64,000 nt of DNA from a virus (IMGVR_UViG_3300010398_000010:25349-89348), one strand, 5' to 3'. Numbered from the stretch's first letter, positions 5,538-64,000 are shown. A program made the numbers and translations. Notes: generated by a model not told the origin, from the sequence alone.

Positions 5538-5560
5538 ACCCCCCGGCCGGGCCGGGGGGT
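5538..5560. other. perfect 10-bp GC hairpin (ACCCCCCGGC-cgg-GCCGGGGGGT) upstream of the tape measure gene
   Basis: Exact inverted repeat read from the sequence; no clear U tract, so possibly an attenuator or RNA stability element. Confidence 0.5.
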
Positions 5561-5586
5561 CTTAGCCATGTTCAGGAGGCGCAGCG

Positions 5587-14700: not shown

Positions 14701-14714
14701 CGAGAGGCAAAGCC

Positions 14715-39890: not shown

Positions 39891-40928
39891 TCACGCCGCA
39901 TCACCGTCATCGGCGCCAGACGACCGGCACGCGAACGGCCCGCACCCGTCCGGGCTGCCCTCTTCCGCGAGCAGCGCCTCGGGCCCGAGGCCAGCCTCGG
40001 TGTCCGCGATCAGGTCGAGCAGATCCCCCTGCCGTTCGCGCCACTCGCGGCGGGTGTACCGGTCGATGTTCGCCTCGCCCAGCGGGACACGCTCGCGGTG
40101 CAGGAACGCCTCACCATCGAGGGGCAGCCCGTGGGATCCGCCCTTGCGGATCGCCGCGTCGAACTCGACCGCAGCCCGCCACTCATCCGGGTGATTGTCA
40201 CGCATGTTCCGCCACTGCCGGTTCCCGTGGTAGGGGCAGAACACGCACGCCGACTTAGCCACCGAGGTCCACCCCTGGCTGTGCAGGAAACGCAGGCACG
40301 CCTTGCGGTCGAGGTCGAGCTCGAGCAGCGGGTGCCGCACCCGCACATAACCGGGTGCGGCGTCGTTGACGCGACCGATCTCATCGGTGGAAAAACCGAC
40401 CCATAGCTCAGCGTGCCGCCCTTTCGGCACCCGCAGGTGACGCGGCGGCCGGGCACCAAGCAATTCCCGGACCTTGCGGTAAATGGGCTCGATCTTGTAT
40501 TCCGACGTGCACTGCCGCCGGCCCATCCCCTGACCGTTGTCCCACCCGGAGCCTTTGCACCGCGGGCAGCGCCGCTCACCGGCCTCATCGGTGACCCGGC
40601 CAGTCGTCCCGCACTTCTCACACGGCCCCGGCGCGTTCTGCACGAAATAGGGCACCGACGCGTACCGGTGATCAGGGTCGACGGCGTCGCGGGCCAGATT
40701 CCCCTTACTCACCTTGATGACCGGCAGGCCATAACCCGCGCAATAGTCGGTCAGCTGGGCAAGGTGGTCATAGACGCGCCGCGGCTCGCCCCCGGTGTCA
40801 GCGAAGATCGCCAGATCGAGGCGGGGCAGCTGCCCGTGACACGCCATCAGCGCGAGCGTCGTGGACTGCACCCCGGCGCCGAGGGACAGCACCCGGATCC
40901 ACGGCCGGCCAGTCTCAAGCGCGAGCAT
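39891..40928 (-). CDS. PAPS-reductase-like (adenine nucleotide alpha hydrolase / PP-loop) protein
   Basis: LSLGAGVQST, IFADTG, RQCTSEYKI, GFSTDE, KSACVFCPY motifs; start may be 40982. Confidence 0.8.
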   Translation of the reverse strand: MLALETGRPWIRVLSLGAGVQSTTLALMACHGQLPRLDLAIFADTGGEPRRVYDHLAQLTDYCAGYGLPVIKVSKGNLARDAVDPDHRYASVPYFVQNAPGPCEKCGTTGRVTDEAGERRCPRCKGSGWDNGQGMGRRQCTSEYKIEPIYRKVRELLGARPPRHLRVPKGRHAELWVGFSTDEIGRVNDAAPGYVRVRHPLLELDLDRKACLRFLHSQGWTSVAKSACVFCPYHGNRQWRNMRDNHPDEWRAAVEFDAAIRKGGSHGLPLDGEAFLHRERVPLGEANIDRYTRREWRERQGDLLDLIADTEAGLGPEALLAEEGSPDGCGPFACRSSGADDGDAA

Positions 40929-41157
40929 CGGCCCCCGCCTCCGCTCTGTTCCGCGCTCGCCACCGGTAGATGGTCCGCTCATCGACCCGCCAGCCCGCGA
41001 ACGCGTACCGCGCCGCGACCCGGGCGTGCGTTCCGGGATGCGCCCGGTCCCACCTCGCCAGCGCCGCCCGCCGCTCGGCTGCCTGCTCGACCCACCGCTC
41101 ACCCGCGTACAGAACCGCCGCCCACTGCATCTGCGTGCCCACCCACGCGGCCATCAC
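40915..41157 (-). CDS. hypothetical protein
   Basis: GTGA coupling with the MazG-like gene. Confidence 0.4.
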   Translation of the reverse strand: MMAAWVGTQMQWAAVLYAGERWVEQAAERRAALARWDRAHPGTHARVAARYAFAGWRVDERTIYRWRARNRAEAGADARA

Positions 41158-42006: not shown

Positions 42007-42498
42007 TCATTGGTCATCACCCGCCGGCTTGGCCTTGGTCTTTTTCGGCGGCGGGTTCTTACACGTCACCCAGTGCGCCACGCCGCGTTTCTCACCACGC
42101 CGCAGATCCGGCTCGGCCTTGGTCAGCATCCGGAACATCAGCTGCCCGCCCTCGCGGTGGACCGCGACCCGGCCCCGCTGGTCACCGGCCGACCAGTAAT
42201 CAACCGGCATCTTGGTGTCGCGGCCGGGCTCGGCTGAGACCGCCCACTCGATATCGGCACCGCACCCCTCGCGGCTGCATTGCGTCATTCCTGCCATGTC
42301 CAGTTCCCGCCCTTCCTCGGCGTCTGGTGGTGGGGCTAGTGACTCGGTGTCCGGTGGCCCCGCCCCGGTGACCTCCCGGTTCCACGCGCGCAGCTTGACC
42401 AGGGCCGGATCGTCCGGGCCGATCCCGGCCGCGCGCAGCTTCGCGTCGACCAGCTGGGCAAGCGGCACCTCAACCCGCGCGGCGGCGGTGGCCATCAC
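42007..42498 (-). CDS. hypothetical protein with Zn-binding-like C-terminal domain
   Basis: CSREGCGADIEW..MPVD..HWVTC; GTGA coupling. Confidence 0.55.
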   Translation of the reverse strand: MMATAAARVEVPLAQLVDAKLRAAGIGPDDPALVKLRAWNREVTGAGPPDTESLAPPPDAEEGRELDMAGMTQCSREGCGADIEWAVSAEPGRDTKMPVDYWSAGDQRGRVAVHREGGQLMFRMLTKAEPDLRRGEKRGVAHWVTCKNPPPKKTKAKPAGDDQ

Positions 42499-43334
42499 CG
42501 GACCCACCGCTCATCGGGGTCGAACAGGTCGCCCTGCACCCACCGGTCATTGACCATCCGCACCGTCCGTTCGTACGCCCAGGCGCAACGGCGCGGGCAG
42601 TTCTGGCACGTCTTGTGCGAGCAGCCAAGCTCGACCTTGGCGCCCTTGGGACGGCGGGCGTCGTCGGACCACGACGAACTGTCCGCCGAGACCAGCCGGT
42701 GCCCGAACTGCGCCAGCCCCCCGGTCTTGACCCCGAACCCGTGCAGCCGCAACGGTGCCAGCGACCTGACGATCTGGTCGGCCTCGGCGGTGTCCTGCCG
42801 GCGGCACATCGAGCCCAGCAGCACAAGCGGCTCATCCTCAAGGTGCACGCCGTGCCGCTCGTACAGATCCCAGCAGCGGTGGTAGTCGTCGCGCGTCCAC
42901 CCCTGCAACGTCAGCCGGATCGGCAGCGACGCGTCGGCCATCCGCAAGTCGAGCAGGTTCTCAACCGTCAGCCGCAGATGCTCGGGCACGTCCAGCCCGG
43001 TGCCGTGGAACCACTGCTGGCGGCCAGCCGGACCCCACCAGCCGCCGGCGATGATCGCCGGTTCGCACATCATGTCCTGCGGTGCCGCGAAGTCGAGCCG
43101 GCCGACCTCATCGGCGGCGCGGCGCATGAGCGCCACATACTCGGCCGGGGACAGCAGGTGCTTGCCCTCACGCTGCACGACCGTGAACGCCCCGGAGTCG
43201 AGCATCCAATCGCGGATCGCCGGGCGCCACGTCTTGACCAGGCCGAGGCGCGCGGCCGATACGCACACGGGGAACTCGCCGCGTTCGGCCAGCCACAGCC
43301 ACGCGGCAGAGTTGATCCCCGGATAGAACCTCAC
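42495..43334 (-). CDS. dpdA: TGT-fold DpdA-like 7-deazaguanine DNA insertion enzyme
   Basis: LDSGAFT, APQDMMCEP, LQG, LGSMCRRQ, LHGFGVK, SADSSSWS and terminal C-x4-C-x2-C motifs; coupled to the VUT gene. Confidence 0.75.
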   Translation of the reverse strand: MRFYPGINSAAWLWLAERGEFPVCVSAARLGLVKTWRPAIRDWMLDSGAFTVVQREGKHLLSPAEYVALMRRAADEVGRLDFAAPQDMMCEPAIIAGGWWGPAGRQQWFHGTGLDVPEHLRLTVENLLDLRMADASLPIRLTLQGWTRDDYHRCWDLYERHGVHLEDEPLVLLGSMCRRQDTAEADQIVRSLAPLRLHGFGVKTGGLAQFGHRLVSADSSSWSDDARRPKGAKVELGCSHKTCQNCPRRCAWAYERTVRMVNDRWVQGDLFDPDERWVR

Positions 43335-43909
43335 GGCGTGGTCGCCGCCAGCAGGTTCGACCGGCGCAGGAACCACGTCACCGGCAAGCCGACCAGAGCG
43401 ATCACTTCCAGCTTGCCGGTGATCTGCCCCGCCAGCGCGACGGAGTAGGGGATCCCGGCCAGCGCGAGGAACAGCAGCGAGTCGACCACCGCCGCGGCCA
43501 CGCTCGACACGGCGACACCGCGCACGAACCACCGCCGCGCCATCGGCGTATAGATCGCCATGTCCAAGCCCTCTGAGACCAGGAACGTCACCCCGGACGC
43601 GACCGCCAGCACCGGGCTGATGGCGTAGGTGAGCCCAGCTGCGAACACGATGGCCGCGACGCCCCACCACCGGCCAAGGCCACGCTGCACCAGATCGCGC
43701 AGCGGGAACGTCAGCCCCGCCATGTAAACCCCGGCCGGGGCGACCAGCAGCCACCACGGGGCCGTGCCCGGGGCAGGCGCGGGCCGGCCGGGGACGGGGA
43801 ACACCTCGATGAACCCGACGTGCACGATCAGCCAGTTGGCCAGATAGATCGCGGCGACGTAGGCCACCAGGGCGAGCCCGCCGACGACCCGGTCACGGTT
43901 CTCAGGCAT
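43331..43909 (-). CDS. VUT/QPTR (YhhQ-like) queuosine-precursor transporter
   Basis: Multiple TM helices; ANW..PAG..GLTFPLRDLVQ..ASG..FLVSE.LD..Y..DSLLF..GQITGK. Confidence 0.85.
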   Translation of the reverse strand: MPENRDRVVGGLALVAYVAAIYLANWLIVHVGFIEVFPVPGRPAPAPGTAPWWLLVAPAGVYMAGLTFPLRDLVQRGLGRWWGVAAIVFAAGLTYAISPVLAVASGVTFLVSEGLDMAIYTPMARRWFVRGVAVSSVAAAVVDSLLFLALAGIPYSVALAGQITGKLEVIALVGLPVTWFLRRSNLLAATTP

Positions 43910-43971
43910 GGCAAAATCTCACTCTCTGTAGTGGTTGAGGGTTCGCCCAAACAGGGCTGTTTGATCTTGAT

Positions 43972-44142
43972 CCGGGGGGGGTCAAGCCGCCGGGGGGGGT
44001 CGGGGGGGTCGTGACCCCCCCCGTTACCAAAAACACCCCTATCTTGATACTGACAAAATAGACTTTAGACTTATTTATATATAGGGAGTCACACCAGTTT
44101 CGTACAAACGCGACCCCCCCCGGACCCCCCGACCCCCCCCGG
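43972..44142. repeat. putative replication origin: inverted G8TC/GAC8 iterons around an AT-rich core
   Basis: CCGGGGGGGGTC at 43972 and 43990; GACCCCCCCCGG at 44112 and 44131; further partial copies; AT-rich 44028-44108. Confidence 0.65.
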
Positions 44143-44143
44143 C

Positions 44144-46249
44144 TCACGACTCGGCCCGCCGGTAGATCACACCGCTGCCGCCGCGCCCGTTCGCGTCACG
44201 TTCCGTAGGCACCGCAATGATCTCCCCACGCCGCACCAACTCGGCCAGGGCGTCATCGAGCACATCACGATGGCGGTTCATCGCCCCGCGCAGTTGCTTG
44301 CGTCTGACGCCATCCCGCGCAGCGCTGACCATTGAGAGGATCCGGGCACAAGCCTGATCAATAGACCGCCGCGCCGTGTCGTCCGCCACGATGGCCTGCC
44401 GGGCGGCGTCCGAATGCGCCCGCGACTCGTTCCGCTCCTGCGCCTCACGGCTCATCGCGTCCGCAGCTGCCTGCCGCGTCCGGTCCGACATCGCCATCAC
44501 GACCCCGGCCAGATCCCAGTCATCCTCACCCACGCCATCGAGGTGCATCACGTCCGGCCGCGACAGCCACGCCAGCGCCGCCGCCACCTTGAGCCGGCAC
44601 AGCGCCGCATGAGCCGCATAGGCGACCTCACCGCCGCGCAGCCGCGCCAGCCGGTCAGCCCGGATCACCGCCCGCGCCTTATCGCACACGCCGAGGGTCA
44701 GTTCCCCGTCGTGGTCACCGATCTCAGACAGACCCGGCATCCCCCACGACACCCCCCGCGGCGGCGGCGGCGGCTCATCCGGCGCGTTCGGGTCGTTCAC
44801 CGGCAGCCAGATGAACCGCTGCGGCGTCCCGCCGTCCACGTCATCGAGCAGAGCCCCAGCGTGCGTCGGCTGCACCCCGGCGATCAGCGACAGCCGGTAA
44901 GAGTGCCCCGGCACCAGCAGCCGCTTGTCCTTGGTGGCGTACTGGAAAGCAAGCTGCTCACCCATCCACGCCTTGCGAAGCTCGGGCAGCAGCGTCGACC
45001 CGCGCCGCGAGTTGAGCGCGGCCATCGTGTCGATCTCGGGCACCGTCATGAGCACGCACCGGTTGCGTTTCTGAACGCACGCGCCCTTCCGGTCGACCTC
45101 GGCGTACAGATGCGCGATCCCCTCACCCGACCCGACCCCGGAGGTGATCACGTCAACACCCCGGCCGAGGAACTGCTCAGCCGCCCGCTCGGCCACGCCC
45201 TTACCGGCACCGGACGGGCCGACCAGGGCGACGAACAGATTGAGCGACGCCCGCCCGCCGGTCAGCGCCGGCAGCATGACAGCTGGGGACATCGACGCGG
45301 TCATCCGCGCCAGCGCCGCACCCAGCACGGCCCACGGCCCGGCTTGGCTGGCCTGGGCGAAATCGTGCAACCGGGCCAGCACGTCACGCGCCTGCCAGAA
45401 CTCTTCCGGCGTGATCACCGGCTCGGATGGCTCGAGCTCGGCCGGTGGCTCACCAGCCTCAGCCACATCGAGCAGACCCGGCTCAGCCTCGACTGGGACG
45501 AACTCATCGAGCTTGAGCCCGGCGGCCAGATGATCGCTGGTGTCCTTGCCCGCAGCCGGGCGGACGATCCGCACCGACGCGGCGGCGACCTCAAGCTCAC
45601 CCCACACCCGCCGCGCATGGTCGAGCCCGGCGTGCCCGCCGCCACGGCCAGCCGGGTCGATGTCCGCGACGATCACCACGTCGGCACCCTCAAGGCTCGC
45701 GGTGTACCCGTCGTCCCACTTGCCCGCGCCCATCGGGTTGCACGTCGCGACCTGCCCGGCCCGCTCAAGCGCGTGCACGTCTTTCTCGCCCTCGACCAGC
45801 CAGATCGTGCTGCCGTTCGCGACGCCCATGACCACCTGCGGCAGGTGGTACAGCACCCGCCGCACGTCACCGAGGCCGGGCACCTGCCGCCCCCGCACGT
45901 AGCGGCCTTGGCGGAACGCCTTGGGGAACATCCGCTCGGTGTAGTGCAGCGGCGAGCCGAATTCGTCGGTGTAGACGTAGGTCGCGACCACCACCGGCCG
46001 GTCACCGTTGGTCGACGGCGCGCAGATGTCGGCCCAGCTGAGCGCGAGCGCGGCCATGACATCTTCGACATGGCAGCCGGCGTGGCAGTTCAGGATCACC
46101 GGCTGCGTCTTGCCGGTGGTGACCGACAGCGACGGGTTGTGATCGTCGTGCGCCGGGCACCGGGCGACGTAGCTGGTACCGGACTGCTTGCGCACCTTGT
46201 CCAGCTTGGCCAGCACCAGATCGAGCACGTCGGTTTCAGCCATCGGCAT
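44144..46249 (-). CDS. DNA primase-helicase (Zn-finger, TOPRIM, C-terminal P-loop/DUF3987-like)
   Basis: ARCPAHDDHNPSLSV; LVEGEKDV..CNPMGAGKW..VADID; GPSGAGKG Walker A. Confidence 0.88.
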   Translation of the reverse strand: MPMAETDVLDLVLAKLDKVRKQSGTSYVARCPAHDDHNPSLSVTTGKTQPVILNCHAGCHVEDVMAALALSWADICAPSTNGDRPVVVATYVYTDEFGSPLHYTERMFPKAFRQGRYVRGRQVPGLGDVRRVLYHLPQVVMGVANGSTIWLVEGEKDVHALERAGQVATCNPMGAGKWDDGYTASLEGADVVIVADIDPAGRGGGHAGLDHARRVWGELEVAAASVRIVRPAAGKDTSDHLAAGLKLDEFVPVEAEPGLLDVAEAGEPPAELEPSEPVITPEEFWQARDVLARLHDFAQASQAGPWAVLGAALARMTASMSPAVMLPALTGGRASLNLFVALVGPSGAGKGVAERAAEQFLGRGVDVITSGVGSGEGIAHLYAEVDRKGACVQKRNRCVLMTVPEIDTMAALNSRRGSTLLPELRKAWMGEQLAFQYATKDKRLLVPGHSYRLSLIAGVQPTHAGALLDDVDGGTPQRFIWLPVNDPNAPDEPPPPPRGVSWGMPGLSEIGDHDGELTLGVCDKARAVIRADRLARLRGGEVAYAAHAALCRLKVAAALAWLSRPDVMHLDGVGEDDWDLAGVVMAMSDRTRQAAADAMSREAQERNESRAHSDAARQAIVADDTARRSIDQACARILSMVSAARDGVRRKQLRGAMNRHRDVLDDALAELVRRGEIIAVPTERDANGRGGSGVIYRRAES

Positions 46250-48287
46250 CGACCTCGATGGTCCGGTTGATCACCCAGCACGCGGCGGGCAGCGCGACGG
46301 CGTTGCCGATCATCCGGTACCGCGCCGCATCCGACAGCGGGCCGGCAGCGGTGCGGGCGGTCCACCCGTCCGGGAACCCTTGCAGCCGCTCACATTCCAG
46401 CGGGGTGAGCCGGCGCACCGCCATGCCCGGGGCGGCGACCTTGGGCTCATGATGACCCGAATGAGTGTTCGACGCCCCGGCGAGCGTCGGGCTGATGCCG
46501 CCCTCACCGATCACCTGGTCTTGGTTCGACCCGCCCTGCCAGTTCCCGTCAACCACGCCCTCGCCGGCGACCATGTTGGCACCATGCCGGCCGGTGACCG
46601 GTGGCGCACCCGGCAGCGACATGCCCAGCTGACTGTTGCCCGCCGTGTTCGCGAACGGGATCAGCGGCGTCCCCCGGCCGGTGCCATCCTCCGACGCGTC
46701 CGCGCCCTCAGACGTGAGCGCGTGGGTGACCAGGTTGACATCGTCCTCTTTCCGCCGGCCCGGAGGGTTGACCCCATCCGATGCTGACCGGCCAGAGGTG
46801 AGCGTCGCCGCGACCATCGCCGCCGACGACCCCCCATCGGCGGCGCGGAGGGTGAACGCCGGATCCCCCGGCTGCCCGGCCTCGGCGGTGTTGCCGCCCT
46901 CGCGTCCCCGCAATGCGACCGGGAACGCCTCGGCGTCCGGGTCGACGGCGATGAAGTTGTCCAGTTCGCCATGCGCCCGGTCGCCCTTGGCGGTCAGCGT
47001 GTGCCCGACGATCAGATGCGAACCCGGCTGCCCGTCGTCACCCAGCCGCGCGCCCGGGGTCAGCACCCCGGCGACCTGATCAGCGGCGACCGGGATCAGG
47101 TGGCCACCGGCCGCGCCCTCAGCGTCGACGCGGTGCCCACGCCGCCCGCCGCCCTGCAACGTGGTCGCGACACCGGCCTGCCCGGTCGTGTCGAGGGTGT
47201 ACGCCGGGTCACCCGACTCGCCCAGCCCGACGCCGTTGGATCCGGTCTGGTGCTCACGCAGCGGCAGCGGCTCGATGATCGCGTGCCCCTGCTTCGCCTC
47301 CTGCACCGACAGCCGCGACCCGGCCGGCCCATGCGGGCCATCCTGCGCCGGGGTAGTCAGCGCGCCAACGGTCTCGACTACGCGGGAGGTGACGGCGGAT
47401 GCGGACTGTCCGACCCCGCCGAGGCCACCGCTTCCAGCGCTCGCCGCAAGGGCACCGGCAACTCGCGACCCCGTCGTCTGGCCCGGCGCAAGATCCCGCT
47501 CGCCCCCCTCGGGCTCAAGCAGTATTTCGCAAGGTGCGGCCCGGTCTCCAAGACGGCAGACAATGAACACACGGTTGCGTCGCTGGGGTACGCCGAAGTA
47601 TTGAGCGTCCAGCACTCGGTAGGCCCACCCATACCCGCGCTGCCCCAACGCCCCGACGACGGCACCCATAGCTCCCCCGTGGGTTGCCATGCACCCGCCC
47701 CGGCAGGATCCGCCTTTGGGGAGGTGGGCGACGCGGGCGGCAAAGACCCGGTGCTTGATTCCGTCGCGGTGGTGGGTGACCCATTTTCCGCATCGAACAG
47801 ACTGCCCTGTTCGTAGACAGGTCTCGTCACCGGGGCATTGGCAGACGGTGTCGAGCAGACCATCAACGTTCTCAAAGCAGAGCCAGAGTGGGCGCAATTC
47901 GTCGGCCAGCCGCATGATGTGCCAGAACAGTCCCGAACGTGCCCCAGATAGGCCCGCACGGCGGCCCGCCACGGAGAAATCCTGGCAAGGCCACCCGGCC
48001 GTGACAATTCCTCGGCTGGGATCAAAGCCGGTGGCTCGCAGCTGGTCACCTGTAACCGTCCTAACATCATCGAATTGGGGAACCTCAGGGAAGTGGTACG
48101 CGAGCAGCGCCCGGCAAGTGGGGTCGATCTCAACCGACGCGCAGACCTTGGCACCGCCCCGGCGCAGCGCCTCACCGAACCCGCCCATCCCCTCAAACAG
48201 GCACACAGCCGTGAGAGGTTTGGCCGGACCGTTACCGGCCCTTGAGACAAGCTCGCTTGCGTTGCGGCGGGCTGATTGCGCTACCAT
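46236..48287 (-). CDS. DNA cytosine-C5 methyltransferase with long repetitive TRD
   Basis: LFEGMGG, GWPCQDFS, ENVDG, QRRNRVF, RRLTPLECERLQGFP, GNAV motifs. Confidence 0.93.
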   Translation of the reverse strand: MVAQSARRNASELVSRAGNGPAKPLTAVCLFEGMGGFGEALRRGGAKVCASVEIDPTCRALLAYHFPEVPQFDDVRTVTGDQLRATGFDPSRGIVTAGWPCQDFSVAGRRAGLSGARSGLFWHIMRLADELRPLWLCFENVDGLLDTVCQCPGDETCLRTGQSVRCGKWVTHHRDGIKHRVFAARVAHLPKGGSCRGGCMATHGGAMGAVVGALGQRGYGWAYRVLDAQYFGVPQRRNRVFIVCRLGDRAAPCEILLEPEGGERDLAPGQTTGSRVAGALAASAGSGGLGGVGQSASAVTSRVVETVGALTTPAQDGPHGPAGSRLSVQEAKQGHAIIEPLPLREHQTGSNGVGLGESGDPAYTLDTTGQAGVATTLQGGGRRGHRVDAEGAAGGHLIPVAADQVAGVLTPGARLGDDGQPGSHLIVGHTLTAKGDRAHGELDNFIAVDPDAEAFPVALRGREGGNTAEAGQPGDPAFTLRAADGGSSAAMVAATLTSGRSASDGVNPPGRRKEDDVNLVTHALTSEGADASEDGTGRGTPLIPFANTAGNSQLGMSLPGAPPVTGRHGANMVAGEGVVDGNWQGGSNQDQVIGEGGISPTLAGASNTHSGHHEPKVAAPGMAVRRLTPLECERLQGFPDGWTARTAAGPLSDAARYRMIGNAVALPAACWVINRTIEVDADG

Positions 48288-52119: not shown

Positions 52120-52368
52120 TCAGCTGTGGATCCCGCCACCATCCGGGCTGCCGCTGGCAGTCCACCCGGCCGGCACCCGCTGCTCACGCAACCACTGGCC
52201 GACCTCGGCCGCGTCGTACTGCCGCATCCGCCCGATCCGGTAAAACGGCGGACCCTTGCCCTGCCGCGCCCAGTCATCGAGCGTGCCCCGGCTCTTGAGC
52301 CCCAGCATCCGGCAGACGGCCTCGGAATCAAGCCACTGACGTTCGGTCGGCTGGTCACTGTCGGCCAT
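52120..52368 (-). CDS. HTH_17/AlpA-type DNA-binding protein (Xis/Cro-like)
   Basis: WLDSEAVCRMLGL.SRGTLDDWARQGKGPPFYRIGRMRQYD..EV.QWL. Confidence 0.85.
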   Translation of the reverse strand: MADSDQPTERQWLDSEAVCRMLGLKSRGTLDDWARQGKGPPFYRIGRMRQYDAAEVGQWLREQRVPAGWTASGSPDGGGIHS

Positions 52369-52463
52369 GCTCTCACCCTGTTTCCCTGTTCCTGGCACGG
52401 TGTAGACACAGCCAACGCTAACAGGGGGGTCTGACAGTCCGATGCGGGCGTTGCGGCCAGAAA

Positions 52464-52474
52464 GGTGTTACCGT
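52464..52474 (+). promoter_or_regulatory. candidate extended -10 promoter (GGTGTTACCGT) for the transfer module
   Basis: Same GGTGTTANNNT pattern as copies 1 and 2; about 110 nt upstream of the DUF2637 start. Confidence 0.4.
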
Positions 52475-52581
52475 GTGCAGTTAGCCGCGCACAAGCGCGA
52501 CCGGGGCGCCGATTCCAACCGTCTCAGCACCCCGGCCACTTGGCTCGGGCCACCTGTGGAAGGGTCGGTGACCGTCACCCA

Positions 52582-53319
52582 ATGACGAACGATAATCTGT
52601 CCGCTGCGGCGGGCCAGGCTGACCATTGGTGGCAGCACCGGCCCCAGCTGCCCGCCCCGCGCACCATCGCCCTCGGTGCCCTGGCCGCCACCGTGCCGAT
52701 CGCCACTGGCGTCGCGTTCCTGCTGAGCTACCGGGGGCTGGTCGATTTCGGGCTCAGCGTCGGTGTCCCCATCTGGCTCGCATGGGCCTACCCCTTGATG
52801 TTCGACCTGCCCATCGTCGCGGGTGAGGCCGTGCTGTTCATCGCCGCCCTCGACAGCAAGACCAAGGGTCACGTCACCGGGTGGGCCTGGGTGGTGACCA
52901 TCGGGTTCGCGGTGGCGTCCGCCGCTGGGAACGCCGGGCTGCTGCCGCAGGTGCTCGCCCGCGCGCTGCCCCCCATCGTGCTCGCCATCCTGCTCGGGTT
53001 CGGCCTCGGTGAACTCAAGCGCCAGTCCCCCAAGAACGTGCGGCGGTCTGCCGACCCTTCCCCGGGAATCTCGCGACCGCCGCACCCTAAGCCCTCCACA
53101 GCCCGTTCCACAGCCGGTGGAAAGACCAGCGGGCACCTCGATGAGGTAGCCGAACGCCGCGCCGCTGACCGCGCCAAGGAACTGCTGCGCGACGGCCCGC
53201 TGCGCGAGCGGACCCTCGCCGCCGACCCCGTGTGCAAGGGCAACCGGCACATGGCCAAGCGCGCGATGGCCACCGCCACCAGAGAACTCGCCCAAGAACC
53301 CGACCGCGCCACCAACTAG
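52582..53319 (+). CDS. DUF2637 (SpdA-like) membrane protein of actinomycete conjugative elements
   Basis: AFLLSYRGL..G...LAWAYPL.FD...4 TM..ALPPIVL, then basic C-terminal region. Confidence 0.8.
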   Translation: MTNDNLSAAAGQADHWWQHRPQLPAPRTIALGALAATVPIATGVAFLLSYRGLVDFGLSVGVPIWLAWAYPLMFDLPIVAGEAVLFIAALDSKTKGHVTGWAWVVTIGFAVASAAGNAGLLPQVLARALPPIVLAILLGFGLGELKRQSPKNVRRSADPSPGISRPPHPKPSTARSTAGGKTSGHLDEVAERRAADRAKELLRDGPLRERTLAADPVCKGNRHMAKRAMATATRELAQEPDRATN

Positions 53320-53373
53320 CCGCCACCCGCGAGACCAGGAGGTCACCAACACGCACTAACGGAAGATCCGGCG

Positions 53374-55122
53374 ATGACCACCACGACCGCCAAACGGCCG
53401 TCGACGGCAACCGGTGAGACCACCACCCGCCGCCGCCGGCCCCACCGGATGCTGTGGCCCGTGCTGATCCTGACCGCGATCCTCGCTGGGATCGCACACC
53501 GGTTCGGCGCCCGCTGGCTGATCGTCGCCGTGATCGTCCTGCTGCTGATGCTGGTCGGCGGCGGGCTCGCCGCAATCTCAGCCAGACGCGGCCGGACCCG
53601 CACCCGCACCCGCAGATGGCGGCGGACCCGAAGCTACCGGCCACCTCGCCCGCCTCACGGGGGTGCTGCCCGATCCCCGCGGCTCGGACGGTTCGGCGGG
53701 CGGGGTGGCCGGTCGGGTAGCAGGCGGGCCGGCGGTGGTGGCAGAGTGGGGGGTGCCAGTTCTGGGCGGGGCCGGCTCTCTAAGCCCGGTCGGCCGCGCG
53801 CAGGATTGCCCCGCCGAGGGACCGGGCGTGCGCCGCTTTCTCCTACTGGACGTGGTGCCGGTCAGAACCCACGACCGAGGCGGAACCGGCCCGGTGGGCG
53901 TCCCGCCGGCCCCCGCCGCGTCACCCCCGGGCGTGGCGGCGCGAGCAGCGGACACGCCCACCGAGGCCGGGCAGGACGCCGCTCAACCCCGCAGAGCGGT
54001 GGTCGGCGCGGCGGGCGGTGGAGTCCCCGCTCCCCGCACCGCCCGTCCGCGCCGGGCAGGGGCCAGCGTCCCGGTTTCATCCGCCGCATCAGCCGAGGCC
54101 ACCGCAGACCCACCGGCAGACCCGGCACCACCGGCCGGCGACCCGGCACGAACCGCCCAGCTGGCCGGCCACCGCCGCTGCGCCAACGGCTCGCCCCGAC
54201 CAGCCGAGGCCGCCAGGCCCGCCGCCAGGCCCGCGCCATCCGCGCCAGCCGGCCACCGGGCATCATCGGCCGGACCCGCCGCCGCGCCCGGGTCAAAGCC
54301 GCGCAGATCCGCGCCGCGCAGGTGCGCGCCCGCCGCCGCGGCCACGCCGGGCCACCATCGAACCGCCGCGCCGCAGCCAGGATCGCCCTCGGGCGGCTGG
54401 CTCACCGCGCCGGGATGCGCCGCGCCGCCGCCCGGATCAACCGCCGCGTCAGCCCCGCGCAGCAACGCGCCGCCCGGGTGCGCCGGCTGCGCCGCACCGC
54501 GAAGTGGAACCGCCGCCGCTGGCAGCTGAGGGCACAAGCGCTGCGCCGCGCCCGCTGGCTACGCGGCTGGGGCACGACCATGCGGCACAACCTCGCCCGC
54601 CGCAAGTGGTGGAAGCGCAACCTCGCGACCGCTCAGCCCGCCCCCACACCACCCCGGCCGAAACCCAGCGCGCCACCCCGGCCCGCGCCCGCGAGCCCCT
54701 TGACCCCACCAGCCGGCGCACCCAAACCGGCACCACCCATCAGCCCAGTCACGGGAAGGATCACCATGCCACGCGGAGGAACCGGCCACCCGGCCGTAGA
54801 CCATGCAGCCAGCGGGATGCGGCACGTCAGCGGCTACCACCCCAAGAACGGCCCCGACCTCGATCATTTCCTCGGTGCCCTGCCCGATGCCCTGTTCGCG
54901 GAGATCGCCAAGCACCTCTACCACCTGGCCGACCGGGCACAGTCCGAATGGCCGCTCAACCCCGAAGTCATCAACGAGCTACGCCAAGGCGCGCAGCACA
55001 TCGTCAGCGTCGGTGAGGCGTACCGGCAGGTCTATGAGACATGGCGGCAGTCCCACGCCGACGACATCCGCCGCTGGGAAAACCCCCGCCCCGGCGAGCC
55101 CATCATGAACGTCCCCGGCTGA
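53374..55122 (+). CDS. TraA-like transfer accessory protein: N-terminal TMs, very Arg-rich middle, conserved C-terminal domain
   Basis: C-terminal YHP...L..LP...IA..L...P....V...H.DDIRRWENPRPGE pattern recalled from genes preceding traB; possible internal start at 54766. Confidence 0.6.
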   Translation: MTTTTAKRPSTATGETTTRRRRPHRMLWPVLILTAILAGIAHRFGARWLIVAVIVLLLMLVGGGLAAISARRGRTRTRTRRWRRTRSYRPPRPPHGGAARSPRLGRFGGRGGRSGSRRAGGGGRVGGASSGRGRLSKPGRPRAGLPRRGTGRAPLSPTGRGAGQNPRPRRNRPGGRPAGPRRVTPGRGGASSGHAHRGRAGRRSTPQSGGRRGGRWSPRSPHRPSAPGRGQRPGFIRRISRGHRRPTGRPGTTGRRPGTNRPAGRPPPLRQRLAPTSRGRQARRQARAIRASRPPGIIGRTRRRARVKAAQIRAAQVRARRRGHAGPPSNRRAAARIALGRLAHRAGMRRAAARINRRVSPAQQRAARVRRLRRTAKWNRRRWQLRAQALRRARWLRGWGTTMRHNLARRKWWKRNLATAQPAPTPPRPKPSAPPRPAPASPLTPPAGAPKPAPPISPVTGRITMPRGGTGHPAVDHAASGMRHVSGYHPKNGPDLDHFLGALPDALFAEIAKHLYHLADRAQSEWPLNPEVINELRQGAQHIVSVGEAYRQVYETWRQSHADDIRRWENPRPGEPIMNVPG

Positions 55123-55130
55123 GGCACCCT

Positions 55131-57113
55131 ATGACCGTGACCGACGACGACGATCCCACGACCGCGCGGCGGCGCTTCCCGTGGATCGGCGTTGAGCTAT
55201 CCGCCGGCGGCGGGCTCGGCCTGTGGGTCGGCTCACTTGCCGTGGGATGGTTCGCCCTGCCCCCGGGCACGGTCATGTGGATACTCGGCGCGGCCGGGAT
55301 CTGCGCCACGTTCGGCGTGTTTTTCCGCACCGGCTCAATGCCGCTCACCATGCTCACCCTCGCGTGGACCGTGCTCACCTTGGCGTGGTTCATTTACGCG
55401 CTGTCCCGCTCACCGTGGGACAGCCACGCGCTCACCCTGCTCATCTGCGCCGTGCTGTTCCTCGCGTTCCTCGGAACCGAGACCTGGGCCAGATGGGATA
55501 AGGCGATGGACCGGTACGCCGCCGGCGAACTGGCGCGGATGGACCTGCTCGAACGCCGCCGCTACGAAAAGATCTTCGCGCTGCTCGGCCAGCCGGTCAC
55601 CGTCACCGCCGTCGATGAGGACCGGTCGGGGACGCTCGTGCGGATCCAGCCACCCAGCGACGGGAAGATCACCCTCACCTCACTGGACAGCATCGCCCGC
55701 AATGTTGAGGTCGCGCTCAAAGCCCGGCCAGGCTCGATCCGGTTTGAACACGGCGCCCACGCCGGCGAGATCACCATGCGCCGGTCCGAAAAAGACATCC
55801 TGGTACAGCCCGTCCACATGCCCGCCGACTACGGCCCGCTGACCGTCAACCGGCCCGTCCGGATCGCCACCCTTGAGGATGGCCGGCCCTACGAAACGCT
55901 GTTCCGCGAGGTCGCGACCCTCGCGGTCGGGGAACGCGGCAGCGGCAAGTCCAACCTGGCCAACGTCATCATCGCCCAGCTGGTGCGCTGCATCGACGTG
56001 ATCGTCCTGGTCATCGACCTCAAACAGGGCCGGATGGCCCGGCCGTGGGTCGCGCCGTGGGTCAACAACCCGGCCGTCATTGGCCGCCCGTCAGTGGACT
56101 GGGTCGCCACCACCCGCGAAGAGGCGCACATCATGCTCTCGGCCCTGGTCAGGGGGATCGAGGCACGCGCCGGGTCCGGGTACGGCGGCGAGAAGCTGAC
56201 CCCCGACCGTGAACACCCCGCCGTGCTGCTGGTCACCGATGAGATCAAAGTCATGTTCGACTACCGGCGCGGCCCCAAGATCCCGATGGACCCCGACGCC
56301 CCGGCGGTGATCACCAACTCCGAACTGGCCATGCTCGGCACCGACGTGACCGAACGCGGCCGGTCCGAGGCCATCGACCCCATCCTGTTCGCGCTGCGCG
56401 GCGTGTCCGACTCAACCGGAGGAACAGACATCAAGGCGCAGTGCCACAAGCGCATCGGGCTGCGCTGCGCGAGCGAAGCCGAGGCCAGATACGTCCTTGA
56501 GGACGACGCCCGCGTGCAACGGATCCTCGCCGGGATGAAACACGCCGGCTCAGCCGTCATCCAAGATGAGCGCACCGGCCCGCACGTGCTCAAGATCGAC
56601 CGGGTCGAGTACGAGCAGATCGCGGAGATCGCCGCCGCCACCTGGGCATTGCGCCCAGAACCCGAACCGCTGCTCGCTGACGCGTGGGGCTCAGCATGGG
56701 CCGACCGGTGGTCCGATGAGCGGGCGGGCGCTTTCAAACGGGCGCTGATGGCCACCCCGTCAGCTGGGGGCGTCGCGCTCACCGTCGCATCCGACCACGT
56801 CCGCCTGACCGATGATCAGGCATTCAAGGATCTGGTGTCATCTGGTGCGCTCGGCGCCGACCCGGAGGCCGGCCTCGATGAACGGCACCGGTTCATGCGG
56901 CAGCTGATCTTCGACGCCAAGGGGTCGGTCTCCCCGAAGTGGCTGCTGCGGCTGCTCGGTGAGGCGCACCGGCAAGGCCGGCTCGACCGCGACGCGCCCG
57001 CACGTGCGGTGCTGCACCGCTGGCTCAAGGCCGACGTGGCGGACGGGATCATCGTCAAAGACTCGTTCGGGGCGTACGCGAAACCGCGCCCGGGGCAGTC
57101 GCGGGCGGCATGA
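55131..57113 (+). CDS. traB: TraB-like FtsK/SpoIIIE conjugative DNA translocase
   Basis: N-terminal TMs; VGERGSGKSN Walker A; VIDLKQG..PW; VLLVTDE Walker B; GRS; C-terminal wHTH-like (VLHRWL..G). Confidence 0.82.
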   Translation: MTVTDDDDPTTARRRFPWIGVELSAGGGLGLWVGSLAVGWFALPPGTVMWILGAAGICATFGVFFRTGSMPLTMLTLAWTVLTLAWFIYALSRSPWDSHALTLLICAVLFLAFLGTETWARWDKAMDRYAAGELARMDLLERRRYEKIFALLGQPVTVTAVDEDRSGTLVRIQPPSDGKITLTSLDSIARNVEVALKARPGSIRFEHGAHAGEITMRRSEKDILVQPVHMPADYGPLTVNRPVRIATLEDGRPYETLFREVATLAVGERGSGKSNLANVIIAQLVRCIDVIVLVIDLKQGRMARPWVAPWVNNPAVIGRPSVDWVATTREEAHIMLSALVRGIEARAGSGYGGEKLTPDREHPAVLLVTDEIKVMFDYRRGPKIPMDPDAPAVITNSELAMLGTDVTERGRSEAIDPILFALRGVSDSTGGTDIKAQCHKRIGLRCASEAEARYVLEDDARVQRILAGMKHAGSAVIQDERTGPHVLKIDRVEYEQIAEIAAATWALRPEPEPLLADAWGSAWADRWSDERAGAFKRALMATPSAGGVALTVASDHVRLTDDQAFKDLVSSGALGADPEAGLDERHRFMRQLIFDAKGSVSPKWLLRLLGEAHRQGRLDRDAPARAVLHRWLKADVADGIIVKDSFGAYAKPRPGQSRAA

Positions 57114-57123
57114 TAGGGCTGAC

Positions 57124-57333
57124 ATGGGATCGTGGCCACTGTTCGGCTGGGGTGCCGGTGGTGTCGCGGTTGGCTGCGCCATCGGCTACGGGCTACAGGT
57201 GCCGCCGTGGACGTTCGCGGTGCTCGGCGCGCTCGGCGCGATCTGCGGATGGGTGGCCGGCTTGTGGGTGCAGAGCCGGATTGAGAGGGACGATGATGGC
57301 GGACACGGGCCGGGATCACACGGGGACGGCTGA
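57124..57333 (+). CDS. small Gly-rich membrane protein
   Basis: Two hydrophobic helices; directly after traB. Confidence 0.5.
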   Translation: MGSWPLFGWGAGGVAVGCAIGYGLQVPPWTFAVLGALGAICGWVAGLWVQSRIERDDDGGHGPGSHGDG

Positions 57334-57733
57334 GTCGATTTTGCGGTTGCGCGCCGATGAGGGCGCGTCGTTTGTGCTCCGGATCGTCCTTGAGCCGGTG
57401 GCCCCCAATGGGGCCGGCCAAAGTGACCGGTGGCCAAGTGACACCATGCCGTCGACCTGGGCCGGGGCGTCGGCGGGTGGGACCGTTGGCGGTGGTGGAA
57501 CCGGGGCGGGTTCACCGGGAGTCTCGGCCGGGTCACATGGGCCGGTGACAGCGCCGCCGCCGGTCCCGGAGGTCCCGGCTGGGGTCCGGTGGGACATCGT
57601 TGAGAAGCAGGCGCGGCTGCTGAACCTCAGGGCGCCTAGTCATGTCGGCCGGGCTCCGGTCTGGTCGCTTGAGGGGTATGAGTGGGTGCTCGAGCTGGCG
57701 GTTGAGGGCGCGAACGCGCGGGGGCTGCTGTGA
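57293..57733 (+). CDS. hypothetical protein
   Basis: GAGAGG RBS; GTGA coupling downstream. Confidence 0.45.
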   Translation: MMADTGRDHTGTAESILRLRADEGASFVLRIVLEPVAPNGAGQSDRWPSDTMPSTWAGASAGGTVGGGGTGAGSPGVSAGSHGPVTAPPPVPEVPAGVRWDIVEKQARLLNLRAPSHVGRAPVWSLEGYEWVLELAVEGANARGLL

Positions 57734-58194
57734 GGGTCACCGTCGATGGGCTCGATCTGTCGACGCCGCTGGGCGGCGACGATGAGAACCGGGTGACGCT
57801 GGCGGATCTGATCGCGGCCGAGGTCGGCCGGTCGATGGTGGCCCAAGGTATCGCTGAGCTCGAGTCGTTGCGGGAGCGGGTGCGGGGGATCCGCGATGAG
57901 CAGATCCGCGAGCAGGTCGCCGCGGAGGTCCGCGAGGCGCTGCATGGTGTGCCGTCGCATGTGCCGGTCACCTTGGCTGAGGTGATCCGCGTCGAGGCGT
58001 GGCAGCAGATCCACCGGGGCGATCTCTATCAGGGAACGTCGACGCCGCTCAAGCAGGTGGTGGCCGCGCTGGTCTATGACCAGTTGCACGCCGAGGCGGA
58101 TGCGCTGGTCAAGGACGCGCGTGACAAGATCCGGGAGCAGGTGCGGGAAGAGATCGCTACCATCGTGTCCCGGAATTTCCGCACGCTGGAGTGA
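57730..58194 (+). CDS. coiled-coil hypothetical protein
   Basis: IRDEQIREQVAAEVREAL helical repeats. Confidence 0.6.
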   Translation: MRVTVDGLDLSTPLGGDDENRVTLADLIAAEVGRSMVAQGIAELESLRERVRGIRDEQIREQVAAEVREALHGVPSHVPVTLAEVIRVEAWQQIHRGDLYQGTSTPLKQVVAALVYDQLHAEADALVKDARDKIREQVREEIATIVSRNFRTLE

Positions 58195-58198
58195 GCCG

Positions 58199-58426
58199 TT
58201 GATCATCGTCGTTGGGATGCTGGTGCGGCCGGGCCGGGGACAGGCCCGGCGGCTGGCGCTGGCTGAGGCGCGGTTCTGGCAGCTGGCGTCGATGACGGCG
58301 GCGCTGCTGGCGCTGTTGACCGGCTGGGCGTTCGCGCGGATGCTGCTGCTCATGTTCACGCTGTATACGGCGACGTGGATCAAGATTTACCTGATGCTGC
58401 GGCTGCTGGCGGTGACCCGATGGTGA
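58199..58426 (+). CDS. small membrane protein
   Basis: TTG start estimated; hydrophobic helices. Confidence 0.4.
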   Translation: MIIVVGMLVRPGRGQARRLALAEARFWQLASMTAALLALLTGWAFARMLLLMFTLYTATWIKIYLMLRLLAVTRW

Positions 58427-63803: not shown

Positions 63804-64000
63804 CCTGCACACATGACACATGACATGCACCTCGCCTAGTCACCAACCGGCCACTGGTCACCAACAGGGAACTCGCCCACCCATCATCTTGGACCCCCCC
63901 ATCGTCCTGACCACCCCACTGATCGACCACCCCGGGCGCTGGCTCAGCGACCATCCCCCGCGCGCCGGACAGATAGTCGTTCATGATCCTTTCCGGCGAC

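What the first reader, a model, noticed from the sequence alone, without database searches (positions are those of the whole stretch)
52582..57113. Actinomycete plasmid/AICE-type conjugation module (DUF2637, TraA-like, TraB) inside a tailed phage genome
Seen: three co-oriented genes encoding a 4-TM DUF2637-type protein, a TM plus Arg-rich protein with a conserved-looking C-terminal domain, and an N-terminally membrane-anchored FtsK-like ATPase (GERGSGKS, LLVTDE, wHTH-like end). They are divergent from an Xis/AlpA-type HTH and flanked by phage recombination and packaging-region genes, with no visible insertion boundary. Established: TraB alone moves double-stranded circular DNA between Streptomyces hyphae, Spd proteins aid intramycelial spread, and this gene set is typical of actinomycete plasmids and AICEs. 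Inference: the element may be a dual-mode phage that spreads as a virion and also by TraB conjugation of its circular form, bypassing receptors and superinfection barriers.
Basis: partly seen in the sequence, partly recalled or inferred. Interest (0 to 1): 0.88.

Follow-up and report, generated by a model that had tools for sequence, protein, structure and literature searches.

The report
Plasmid-type DNA pump module in actinophage
A nearly complete 89-kb tailed phage of a high-GC, probably filamentous actinomycete carries as its own inherited genes a membrane DNA pump and two helper membrane proteins like those Streptomyces plasmids use to push double-stranded DNA between hyphae; such modules are already known (plasmid-phage pZL12, several cultured actinophages), so this is a new example, not a new kind.

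Summary
Three co-oriented genes encode:
- a 4-TM DUF2637 protein (52582-53319);
- a 2-TM, 29%-Arg protein with a conserved 110-aa helical C-domain (53374-55122);
- a membrane-anchored ATPase with an FtsK-like fold (55131-57113).

They diverge from an HTH_17 gene inside a CheckV-98%-complete tailed-phage record.

The ATPase is TraB-like, not chromosomal FtsK. My family HMM gives plasmid and phage homologues 150-310 bits over nearly their full length, against about 30 bits for Streptomyces FtsK. The middle protein's C-domain sits directly upstream of the pump in about 60 of 70 loci. These include small conjugative plasmids, pZL12, Hiyaavirus Keanu and Thermobifida phage P1312.

The pump falls in a clade of eight viral contigs (99/97 support). 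It lies upstream of the terminase, as in many relatives, and has no att repeats, so it is not a nested AICE.

The dual-mode reading is only partly supported. pZL12 is a published precedent, but this phage and its subclade have no recognisable integrase, resolvase, ParA/ParB or protelomerase, and no clt was found near the pump.

Most likely the module moves phage DNA between hyphal compartments without virions; this is untested. The scan has reported the same kind at least eight times on other DNA. I class it as a new member of a known kind.

The parts
52120..52398 (-). Small HTH_17 (Xis/AlpA/MerR-type) protein of 92 aa, transcribed divergently from the module; candidate regulator. It also ends the leftward recombination/replication operon.
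   Evidence: PF12728 at 37.3 bits, E 3.4e-10, above cut-off, at window 52177-52335 (-). In frame with the GC3-supported ORF g106.
52399..52581 (.). 183-bp divergent intergenic region (presumed promoter/operator). It holds one copy of GACCCCCC (52424-52431) and a weak sigma-70-like match at 52568-52596.
   Evidence: Sequence; motif hit; promoter-like match. These are consensus matches only.
52582..53319 (+). DUF2637 integral membrane protein, 245 aa, four TM segments; it holds the place of the Spd membrane proteins of plasmid and AICE transfer loci, and I read it as SpdB2-like (inference).
   Evidence: Pfam PF10935 at 51.5 bits. Four hydrophobic segments. An HMM built on it finds the same family just upstream of the partner gene in L018 and L056 and about 1.1 kb upstream of it in L059 and L062, and next to short FtsK-like genes in L073-L076. 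SpdB2 is a 4-TM pore-forming protein (PMC4447253). Homology of SpdB2 itself to DUF2637 was not tested.
53374..55122 (+). Partner protein, 582 aa: two N-terminal TM helices, a roughly 370-aa Arg/Gly/Pro/Ala-rich basic linker (29% Arg) and a C-terminal helical domain.
   Evidence: No family in Pfam, PHROGs, NCBIfam or PADLOC. The frame is conserved in L084.
54784..55119 (+). Conserved ~110-aa C-terminal domain of the partner: helical hairpin/bundle ending in the motif ENPRPxExxWDV. It marks the gene directly upstream of TraB-like pumps in plasmids, phages and MAG chromosomes.
   Evidence: Iterated HMM finds 70 domain hits, directly upstream of the pump in nearly every locus. Alignment A2 has R102 and E105 invariant. 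AF2 pLDDT 93.9. No PDB fold match at E<1.
55131..57113 (+). TraB-like dsDNA translocase, 660 aa: N-terminal TM anchor (about aa 18-150), FtsK-like alpha/beta motor (Walker A GERGSGKS, Walker B LLVTDE) and a C-terminal three-helix plus hairpin domain (584-650).
   Evidence: AF2 pLDDT 85.7. Foldseek matches the FtsK motor on dsDNA, 6t8b, E 2e-16, TM 0.67-0.70. phrog_31069 at E 1.5e-30. HMM scores; trees.
57110..57733 (+). Possible fourth gene (207 aa) whose ATG overlaps the pump's stop codon (ATGA). Function unknown and coding signal only moderate.
   Evidence: Sequence. GC3 0.72-0.82. No family and no homologue in any fetched locus.

Best explanation
This is a resident plasmid-type DNA-translocation module of a tailed actinophage.

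Proposed mechanism (all steps below are inferred unless marked as shown):
- The 660-aa protein is a TraB-like, membrane-anchored, presumably hexameric FtsK-fold motor. Its C-terminal winged-helix-like domain would recognise a repeated motif on the phage DNA.
- The 582-aa partner is a membrane-anchored, very basic protein. Its conserved C-terminal helical domain most likely docks on the pump.
- The DUF2637 protein is an SpdB2-like 4-TM channel or spreading protein.
- Together they would pump unprocessed double-stranded phage DNA across membranes and septal cross-walls into neighbouring hyphal compartments or touching hyphae, without virions. This is how TraB and the Spd proteins spread plasmids.

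No integration, partition or repressor genes are recognisable in this phage or its closest relatives. I therefore favour spread of replicating phage DNA during infection or a carrier state over stable conjugative inheritance.

Shown: gene content, folds, homology, synteny and phage ancestry. Inferred: DNA as the substrate, the partner-pump contact and the biological role.
For: The record is a tailed phage.
- TerL, portal, protease/MCP, tape measure and GH25 lysin are present. It is 98% complete by CheckV.

The pump is TraB-like.
- FtsK motor fold on dsDNA, with a TM anchor and a C-terminal HHH-beta-beta domain.
- The family HMM scores plasmid and phage TraB-like proteins at 150-310 bits over positions ~20-630, against ~30 bits over 55 positions for Streptomyces FtsK.

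The partner is conserved.
- Its C-domain lies directly upstream of the pump in four small conjugative plasmids, pZL12 (72c), Keanu gp93, P1312_064 and about 50 further loci.

DUF2637 is linked to FtsK-like genes.
- It lies next to short AICE-type FtsK-like genes, and upstream of the partner gene (directly in L018 and L056, about 1.1 kb away in L059 and L062).

The module is ancestral to the phage.
- The pump falls in a 9-row clade with 8 viral contigs, UFBoot 99 / SH-aLRT 97. Of 13 viral contigs with a phrog_9 TerL, 10 have it 5-21 kb downstream of the pump on the same strand, and so do 3 Streptomyces prophages.
- No att repeats and no GC break.

Experimental precedent.
- pZL12 transfer needs tra plus two adjacent genes (PMC3583192).
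- SpdB2 homologues on actinophages were proposed to spread phage DNA (PMC4447253).

No maintenance genes.
-. Cultured Keanu also lacks an integrase and a resolvase.
Against: - No function was tested; everything rests on homology.
- Curated family thresholds are not met: NCBIfam plasmid_TraB 25 of 800 bits; Pfam FtsK_SpoIIIE 16.2 of 24 bits.
- No clt-like repeat array lies in or downstream of the pump gene. The only strong repeat array in the genome (GACCCCCC at 43970-44140) looks like a replication origin.
- The GntR-type kil/kor regulator typical of plasmid loci is absent.
- The host is unknown, so hyphal growth is inferred only from relatives in Streptosporangiaceae-labelled MAGs and in Streptomyces and Thermobifida phages.
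- The closest cellular homologues sit as bare two-gene pairs among housekeeping genes. The pump family is therefore not strictly tied to mobile-element transfer.
- Failing to recognise lysogeny genes does not prove the phage is lytic.
Confidence: 0.6

Rival explanations
1. One reading: a true dual-mode element. It persists as a circular plasmid-like or prophage replicon and conjugates to new recipients through TraB, giving stable transconjugants and bypassing receptors and superinfection barriers.
For: - pZL12 does this (PMC3583192; PMC4487206).
- The phage has its own primase/helicase next to an origin-like structure: an AT-rich core flanked by inverted iterons. Autonomous replication is therefore plausible.
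- The record's two ends share 13 nt, which is compatible with circularisation.
Against: - No ParB, ParA (AAA_31, CbiA), tyrosine or serine recombinase or protelomerase in a 98%-complete record.
- No integrase, resolvase or ParB in the eight closest viral contigs either, two of which have terminal repeats.
- No GntR kil/kor regulator and no CI-like repressor recognised; only a small HTH_3 at 31592-31840.
- pZL12 itself has ParAB and a tyrosine recombinase.
Confidence: 0.17
2. A septum-clearing or segregation role. The pump acts like FtsK or SffA, moving phage (or host) DNA through closing sporulation or vegetative septa, so that phage genomes end up in spores or compartments rather than being transferred between cells.
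For: - FtsK-like fold and membrane anchor.
- Chromosomal pump/short-partner pairs in MAGs lie among housekeeping genes, in two loci next to PBP2 and FtsW/RodA.
Against: - Only ~30 bits of local similarity to Streptomyces FtsK, against full-length similarity to plasmid transfer proteins.
- The partner and DUF2637 context is that of transfer loci.
Confidence: 0.1
3. Superinfection exclusion or defence: a membrane complex that expels or blocks incoming foreign DNA.
For: - Membrane location.
- DUF2637 'membrane proteins' also occur in phages of non-filamentous hosts such as Gordonia and Microbacterium.
- In two MAG loci the pair lies next to Wadjet JetC/JetD.
Against: - No PADLOC family apart from a 17-bit P-loop match.
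- The homologues with known function are transfer proteins.
- Conserved position and phylogeny within phages fit a core phage function.
Confidence: 0.06
4. A nested AICE or plasmid remnant, recently inserted in the phage and absent from its relatives.
For: The gene set is typical of plasmids and AICEs.
Against: - No integrase, rep or att-like repeats around it and uniform GC.
- The pump clusters with pumps of other viral contigs, which keep the same position relative to TerL.
- A 76%-identical relative keeps the partner-pump pair.
Confidence: 0.03
5. A protein-export device. The FtsK-like ATPase recognises the C-terminal tail of the helical-hairpin partner, as EccC recognises EsxB in type VII secretion, and moves protein rather than DNA.
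For: - The partner C-domain is a ~110-aa helical hairpin with an invariant C-terminal tail motif.
- EccC and EssC are among the structural matches of the pump.
- In MAGs the partner is just this domain.
Against: - A single ATPase domain with FtsK-like alpha/beta architecture and a DNA-binding-type C-terminal domain.
- The best matches are FtsK on dsDNA.
- The WXG100 match of the partner is not significant (E 3.6).
Confidence: 0.03

Closest known systems
Transfer locus of Streptomyces plasmid-phage pZL12 / phiZL12 (pZL12.73c-72c-71c; Zhong et al. 2010, J Bacteriol 192:3747); pFP4 (Chen et al. 2012, Plasmid 68:170) is a second plasmid-phage
   Same: - A tailed-phage genome of about 90 kb.
- The order is membrane protein, then a large partner carrying the same C-domain, then a TraB-like pump, on one strand a few kb upstream of the packaging genes.
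- pZL12 transfer needs the tra gene plus two adjacent genes (PMC3583192).
   Different: - Only ~25% identity in the pump.
- pZL12.72c has two copies of the C-domain.
- pZL12.73c shows no detectable DUF2637.
- pZL12 has a GntR regulator, ParAB and a tyrosine recombinase; this phage has none of them.
- I could not read the pZL12 paper itself, and pFP4 was not compared.
Transfer operons of small actinomycete plasmids pFQ12 (Frankia), pSQ10 (Nocardiopsis), pAGRA3207_2 (Actinomadura) and pADI95-16c (Streptomyces)
   Same: - A 524-580-aa partner with the same C-terminal domain lies directly upstream of a 728-755-aa TraB-like pump.
- A larger membrane protein lies further upstream.
- The pump matches my family HMM over nearly its full length at 156-310 bits.
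   Different: - They are 10-22-kb plasmids with a DUF3307 gene and, in one case, a GntR regulator.
- They have no phage genes.
- Pump identity is 26-34%.
TraB with SpdB2/SpdB3/Spd79 of pSVH1 (also pIJ101 and pSG5), the experimentally dissected system (Thoma et al. 2015, PMC4447253)
   Same: - A membrane-associated FtsK-like hexameric pump with a C-terminal clt-recognition domain.
- A 4-TM oligomeric pore-forming SpdB2.
- The proteins form one membrane complex that spreads dsDNA through mycelium.
- The authors already noted SpdB2 homologues on actinophages.
   Different: - No sequence from pSVH1 was available here, so homology to its TraB and SpdB2 was not tested directly.
- NCBIfam plasmid_TraB scores only 25 bits.
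- The paper does not describe a partner with this C-domain in pSVH1.
- The regulator there is the GntR-type TraR.
Cultured actinophages with annotated FtsK-like translocases: Hiyaavirus (Keanu, Hiyaa, Spocter, Galactica) and Thermobifida phage P1312
   Same: - Keanu has gp91 (membrane protein, weak DUF2637, E 1.2e-3), gp93 (576 aa with the C-domain) and gp94 (pump) near the right genome end.
- Keanu also lacks an integrase and a resolvase.
- P1312 has the 064/063 pair.
   Different: - 26-31% identity, and they sit in another branch of the tree, mixed with plasmid pumps.
- P1312 carries a serine recombinase beside the module.
- I know of no functional study of these genes.
Chromosomal FtsK (Streptomyces; P. 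aeruginosa and E. coli motor structures 6T8B, 2IUT, 2IUS)
   Same: Same motor fold with Walker A and B, an N-terminal TM anchor and a small C-terminal DNA-recognition-type domain.
   Different: - Sequence similarity is only local: ~30 bits over 55 HMM positions.
- No long linker.
- No detectable similarity to the gamma domain, though that hhalign target was contaminated.
- The gene context differs.

Membership tests
Streptomyces-type conjugative translocase TraB | FtsK-like alpha/beta motor domain with Walker A and B | tested here: met
   GERGSGKS and LLVTDE. Foldseek FtsK motor 6t8b, E 2e-16, TM 0.67-0.70.
Streptomyces-type conjugative translocase TraB | N-terminal membrane association | tested here: met
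   Hydrophobic segments at aa 47-65, 72-90 and 98-116. Four long N-terminal helices in the AF2 model.
Streptomyces-type conjugative translocase TraB | C-terminal wHTH that binds 8-bp repeats of a clt locus | tested here: inconclusive
   Helix-helix-helix-strand-strand topology at 584-650, pLDDT ~90. No repeat array in or after the gene. The only array (GACCCCCC x7, 43970-44140) looks like an origin. DNA binding cannot be tested here.
Streptomyces-type conjugative translocase TraB | Passes the curated family models (NCBIfam NF041214 plasmid_TraB; Pfam PF01580 FtsK_SpoIIIE) | tested here: not met
   NF041214 at 25.1 bits against a cut-off of 800. PF01580 at 16.2 bits against 24. NF041214 scores Streptomyces FtsK higher (67 bits), so it does not discriminate at this distance.
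Streptomyces-type conjugative translocase TraB | Encoded in a transfer operon with Spd-type membrane proteins under a GntR-type kil/kor regulator | tested here: inconclusive
   A DUF2637 4-TM protein and the conserved partner are present in one co-oriented row. No GntR; an HTH_17 gene is divergent instead.
Streptomyces-type conjugative translocase TraB | Moves dsDNA between hyphae | not testable with these tools
   Needs mating or spread assays.
Pfam DUF2637 (PF10935) | Match above the gathering score; multi-pass membrane protein | tested here: met
   51.5 bits against 22.8. Four TM segments.
pZL12-type three-gene tra locus | Pump, upstream partner and upstream membrane protein are each homologous to pZL12.71c, 72c and 73c | tested here: inconclusive
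   Pump: tblastn E 7e-17 and HMM 157 bits. Partner C-domain: E 3.5e-41 with the iterated HMM. Membrane protein: no detectable similarity, and 73c has no Pfam family.
AICE (actinomycete integrative and conjugative element) | Integrase, replication gene and tra bounded by att repeats, often at a tRNA gene | tested here: not met
   No Phage_integrase or Resolvase in the record. No att-like repeats around the module. The element is a tailed phage.
Phage-plasmid | Phage genome plus plasmid maintenance genes (partition and/or plasmid rep) | tested here: not met
   No ParB_N, AAA_31, CbiA or protelomerase. A primase/helicase and an iteron-flanked AT-rich region exist, but these are ordinary phage features too.
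Chromosomal FtsK/SpoIIIE | Full-length similarity including the gamma domain; chromosomal cell-division context | tested here: not met
   About 30 bits of local match only. hhalign of the C-terminus against the FtsK gamma domain gave probability 0.1, though the gamma alignment was contaminated by wrong-frame ORFs. The correctly picked FtsK rows are the outgroup in the tree.

The most novel reading that the evidence does not exclude
A whole subclade of tailed actinophages (this record plus eight viral contigs, two of them ~160 kb with terminal repeats) keeps an intact TraB pump, basic partner and SpdB2-like module. None has any recognisable integration or partition gene. The pump would then not serve a plasmid-like lifestyle at all. 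It would act as a viral 'movement' device, pushing replicating phage DNA through hyphal cross-walls ahead of lysis. The 110-aa helical domain with the ENPRPxExxWDV tail would be the universal, so far undescribed adaptor of TraB-type pumps in plasmids, phages and chromosomes.
Probability: 0.3. Interest if true: 0.7.

Novelty: new member of a known kind. Interest (0 to 1): 0.36.

Why it matters
If phages of filamentous actinomycetes routinely carry a working TraB-type pump, part of their spread in soil mycelia needs no virions. That spread would escape receptor-based resistance, which bears on phage ecology, on gene flow in antibiotic producers and on how plaques form on mycelial hosts.

This record adds no new principle. 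It does add three usable facts:
- The module is ancestral in a phage lineage that seems to lack lysogeny genes.
- A conserved 110-aa partner domain marks TraB-type loci across plasmids, phages and chromosomes. It could serve as a search key for these otherwise poorly annotated systems.
- Cultured surrogates with the same trio (Hiyaavirus on S. lividans) exist, so the idea can be tested.

Tried and rejected
- The look-up of encoding contigs. The contigs of the closest proteins P0006 (76%) and P0007 (66%) could not be fetched that way. One close contig (L084) came from the metagenome scan instead.
- Complex prediction. The partner-pump contact remains inference.

Searches that gave little or nothing:
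- Single-sequence scan of viral contigs. The alignment-based scan worked.
- Megablast of 20 kb against phages and plasmids: no close relative.
- NC_003904 (SCP2) is not held and the pZL12 paper is not held. Canonical SCP2 and pSVH1 proteins were therefore never compared directly, and 'TraA-like' stays unverified.
- tblastn of the partner C-domain alone: two plasmid hits and no phage hit. Only the HMM sees the family.
- Foldseek of the partner C-domain: no match at E<1. ESM Atlas: only unnamed clusters.
- PADLOC: no defence family.
- hhalign of the pump C-terminus against FtsK gamma: no similarity, and the gamma alignment was contaminated by wrong-frame ORFs.

My own errors:
- In the first tree the row L068 was a wrong-frame ORF picked by my script. 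Its placement there is meaningless.
- I first scanned the wrong frame for the divergent HTH and corrected it.

Rejected ideas:
- Nested AICE: no att, no integrase, viral phylogeny.
- Packaging ATPase: a separate TerL exists and the pump has TM helices.
- A clt inside or after the pump gene: only chance-level repeats.


Full report
WHAT THE RECORD IS

The window is the last 64 kb of a single 89,348-bp virus record from IMG/VR, classed 'linear' and 98% complete by CheckV. GC is about 70% throughout, with no break at the module. The first and last 13 nt of the record are identical.

It is a tailed phage. The following genes are present:
- large terminase (record 1651-3147);
- portal (record 4659-6158);
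- protease and major head protein;
- tape-measure/minor tail protein (window 5587-9027);
- a GH25 lysin (window 14484-15647).

The leftward early block holds a primase/helicase, a C5 methylase, RecT, an exonuclease and RusA.

THE OBSERVATION

Gene 1 (52582-53319) is a DUF2637 protein (51.5 bits against a cut-off of 22.8) with four hydrophobic segments.

Gene 2 (53374-55122) has two N-terminal TM helices, then about 370 residues with 29% Arg plus Gly/Pro/Ala, then a C-terminal domain.
- GC3 cannot choose the frame at 53600-54100.
- A 76%-identical metagenome contig keeps this frame over residues 294-580.
- Partners in the same subclade are built the same way: two N-terminal TM segments in most of them, and 18-25% Arg.

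Gene 3 (55131-57113) carries GERGSGKS and LLVTDE.
- Its AF2 model (pLDDT 85.7) shows four N-terminal helices, a RecA-type motor and a C-terminal helix-helix-helix-hairpin unit.
- The best structural matches are the FtsK motor on dsDNA (6t8b, E 2e-16, TM 0.67-0.70), then TcpA, EccC and HerA.

The divergent gene is a real HTH_17 protein, in the frame 52120-52398. A 207-aa ORF starts on the pump's stop codon, but it has no relatives.

TRAB-LIKE OR FTSK?

Curated models do not settle this.
- Pfam FtsK_SpoIIIE gives 16.2 bits, below its cut-off of 24.
- NCBIfam plasmid_TraB gives 25 bits against a cut-off of 800, and it scores Streptomyces FtsK higher.

An HMM of the pump's own family (alignment A1) does discriminate.
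- Pumps of small conjugative plasmids score 156-310 bits over nearly the whole model: pFQ12 310, pSQ10 214, pAGRA3207_2 210, pADI95-16c 156.
- So do phage and phage-plasmid pumps: P1312 217, Keanu 217, pZL12 157, and an 86-kb S. albidoflavus plasmid that carries a terminase, 305.
- Streptomyces FtsK scores about 30 bits over 55 positions.
- PHROGs already holds a phage family for the pump (phrog_31069, E 1.5e-30).

THE PARTNER DOMAIN

The last ~110 residues of gene 2 define a family. An iterated HMM finds it in the ORF directly upstream of the pump in nearly every fetched locus:
- the four small plasmids (partners of 524-580 aa);
- pZL12.72c, with two copies;
- Keanu gp93 and P1312_064;
- most IMG/VR contigs;
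- Streptomyces prophages;
- about 25 MAG chromosomal loci.

The domain is a confident helical hairpin/bundle (pLDDT 93.9) ending in ENPRPxExxWDV. It has no significant PDB match and no family in any library. Its constant adjacency makes a physical link with the pump likely.

DUF2637

An HMM built from gene 1 finds the family in several places:
- directly upstream of the partner gene in L018 and L056 (L056 is a S. fumanus prophage that also holds a portal homologue);
- about 1.1 kb upstream of the partner gene in L059 and L062;
- next to short FtsK-like genes in four Streptomyces genomes (L073-L076), the AICE-type arrangement.

Keanu gp91 matches weakly (E 1.2e-3). DUF2637 proteins also occur in Gordonia and Microbacterium phages, so DUF2637 alone does not indicate transfer.

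RESIDENT MODULE, NOT AN INSERTION

- There are no att-like repeats, no integrase and no GC shift.
- In a careful ML tree the pump sits with eight IMG/VR contigs (UFBoot 99 / SH-aLRT 97; the same clade appears). Five of those contigs hold a phrog_9 terminase.
- Of 13 viral contigs with a phrog_9 terminase, 10 have it 5-21 kb downstream of the pump on the same strand. The same holds for three Streptomyces prophages. Here the distance is about 8.5 kb across the record's ends, and it is about 5 kb in pZL12 and the S. albidoflavus phage-plasmid.
- In the wider tree, plasmid and phage pumps are interleaved (P1312 with pAGRA3207_2, pSQ10 with a viral contig). This points to repeated exchange.

LIFESTYLE

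The record has no tyrosine or serine recombinase, no ParB, no ParA (two families) and no protelomerase.

The eight closest viral contigs also lack integrase, resolvase and ParB, including two with terminal repeats. Other branches do have them.

Among cultured references:
- pZL12 has ParAB and a tyrosine recombinase;
- P1312 has a serine recombinase;
- Keanu has neither recombinase.

The module is therefore not tied to a plasmid or prophage state. This weakens the 'stable conjugative second lifestyle' reading for this phage. It favours movement of replicating DNA within or between hyphae, as Thoma et al. suggested for SpdB2 homologues on actinophages (PMC4447253).

CIS SITE

No repeat array lies in or after the pump gene. 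The one striking array in the genome is at 43970-44140. An AT-rich core of about 90 bp is flanked by inverted sets of GACCCCCC(C), seven copies in all, directly after the primase/helicase gene. It looks like a replication origin, but it is also the only candidate recognition array. One further copy lies in the divergent promoter region of the module (52424-52431).

COMPARISON WITH WHAT IS KNOWN, AND VERDICT

The concept has an experimental precedent: transfer of pZL12 needs tra plus two adjacent genes (PMC3583192). There is a second plasmid-phage, pFP4 (cited in PMC6950372). FtsK-like translocases are already annotated in cultured phages. This scan has reported the same kind at least eight times on other DNA.

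I therefore rate this a new member of a known kind, of moderate interest. The points worth keeping are:
- the conserved partner domain;
- the apparent lack of lysogeny genes in this subclade;
- the bare two-gene chromosomal copies noted in passing.

LIMITS

- The host is unknown.
- No functional data exist for this phage.

Noticed in passing
window 43970-44140: Origin-like structure directly after the primase/helicase gene. An AT-rich core of about 90 bp is flanked by inverted arrays of GACCCCCC(C): four copies on the left (one inverted) and three on the right. Seven of the window's 11 copies lie within 160 bp. It is probably the phage replication origin, but it is also the only candidate TraB recognition array.
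   Followed up: partly
L028-L055 and L063 (MAG chromosomes, labelled Streptosporangiaceae or Actinomycetota): The pump's closest cellular relatives (37-45% identity) occur as bare two-gene pairs: a 113-122-aa protein that is just the partner C-domain, plus the pump. They lie among housekeeping genes in varied contexts (Ppx/GppA and LMW-PTP; GGDEF-EAL; PBP2 with FtsW/RodA; Wadjet JetC/JetD), with no integrase or phage genes nearby. Six copies are split or frameshifted (L048, L052-L055, L063). They may be domesticated, decaying remnants, or a host system of unknown role.
   Followed up: partly
G000 record ends (record 1-13 and 89336-89348; the latter is window 63988-64000): The first and last 13 nt of the record are identical (CCTTTCCGGCGAC). 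This could be an assembly overlap of a circular or permuted genome, or short terminal redundancy. IMG/VR classes the record as linear.
   Followed up: no
L002 (pZL12.72c) and L059, L061, L062 (Streptomyces contigs): In these loci the partner protein carries two tandem copies of the 110-aa C-domain instead of one.
   Followed up: no
window 31592-31840 (+): A small HTH_3 (XRE/Cro-like) gene (48 bits) opens a rightward block at a divergent junction with the leftward genes that end at 31241. It is the only switch-like region seen, and no CI-like partner was recognised.
   Followed up: no
window 57640-58383 (-): This 247-aa ORF is probably spurious. GC3 supports + strand genes here instead (57730-58194 and 58076-58426).
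   Followed up: partly
window 39891-41102 (-) and 42495-43909: A PAPS-reductase-like protein (phrog_424, E 1.4e-43) lies near the region that another first-stage note reads as a DpdA-like 7-deazaguanine DNA-modification pair. Together with the C5 methylase at 46236-48287, this suggests the phage modifies its DNA heavily.
   Followed up: no
L005 (IMG/VR contig, 63 kb) against L029 and L032 (MAG chromosomes): A viral contig that has a tyrosine integrase and a long (593-aa) partner is sister (100/100) to MAG chromosomal pumps with the short partner. This hints that the chromosomal pairs derive from integrated phages or elements, or the reverse.
   Followed up: no
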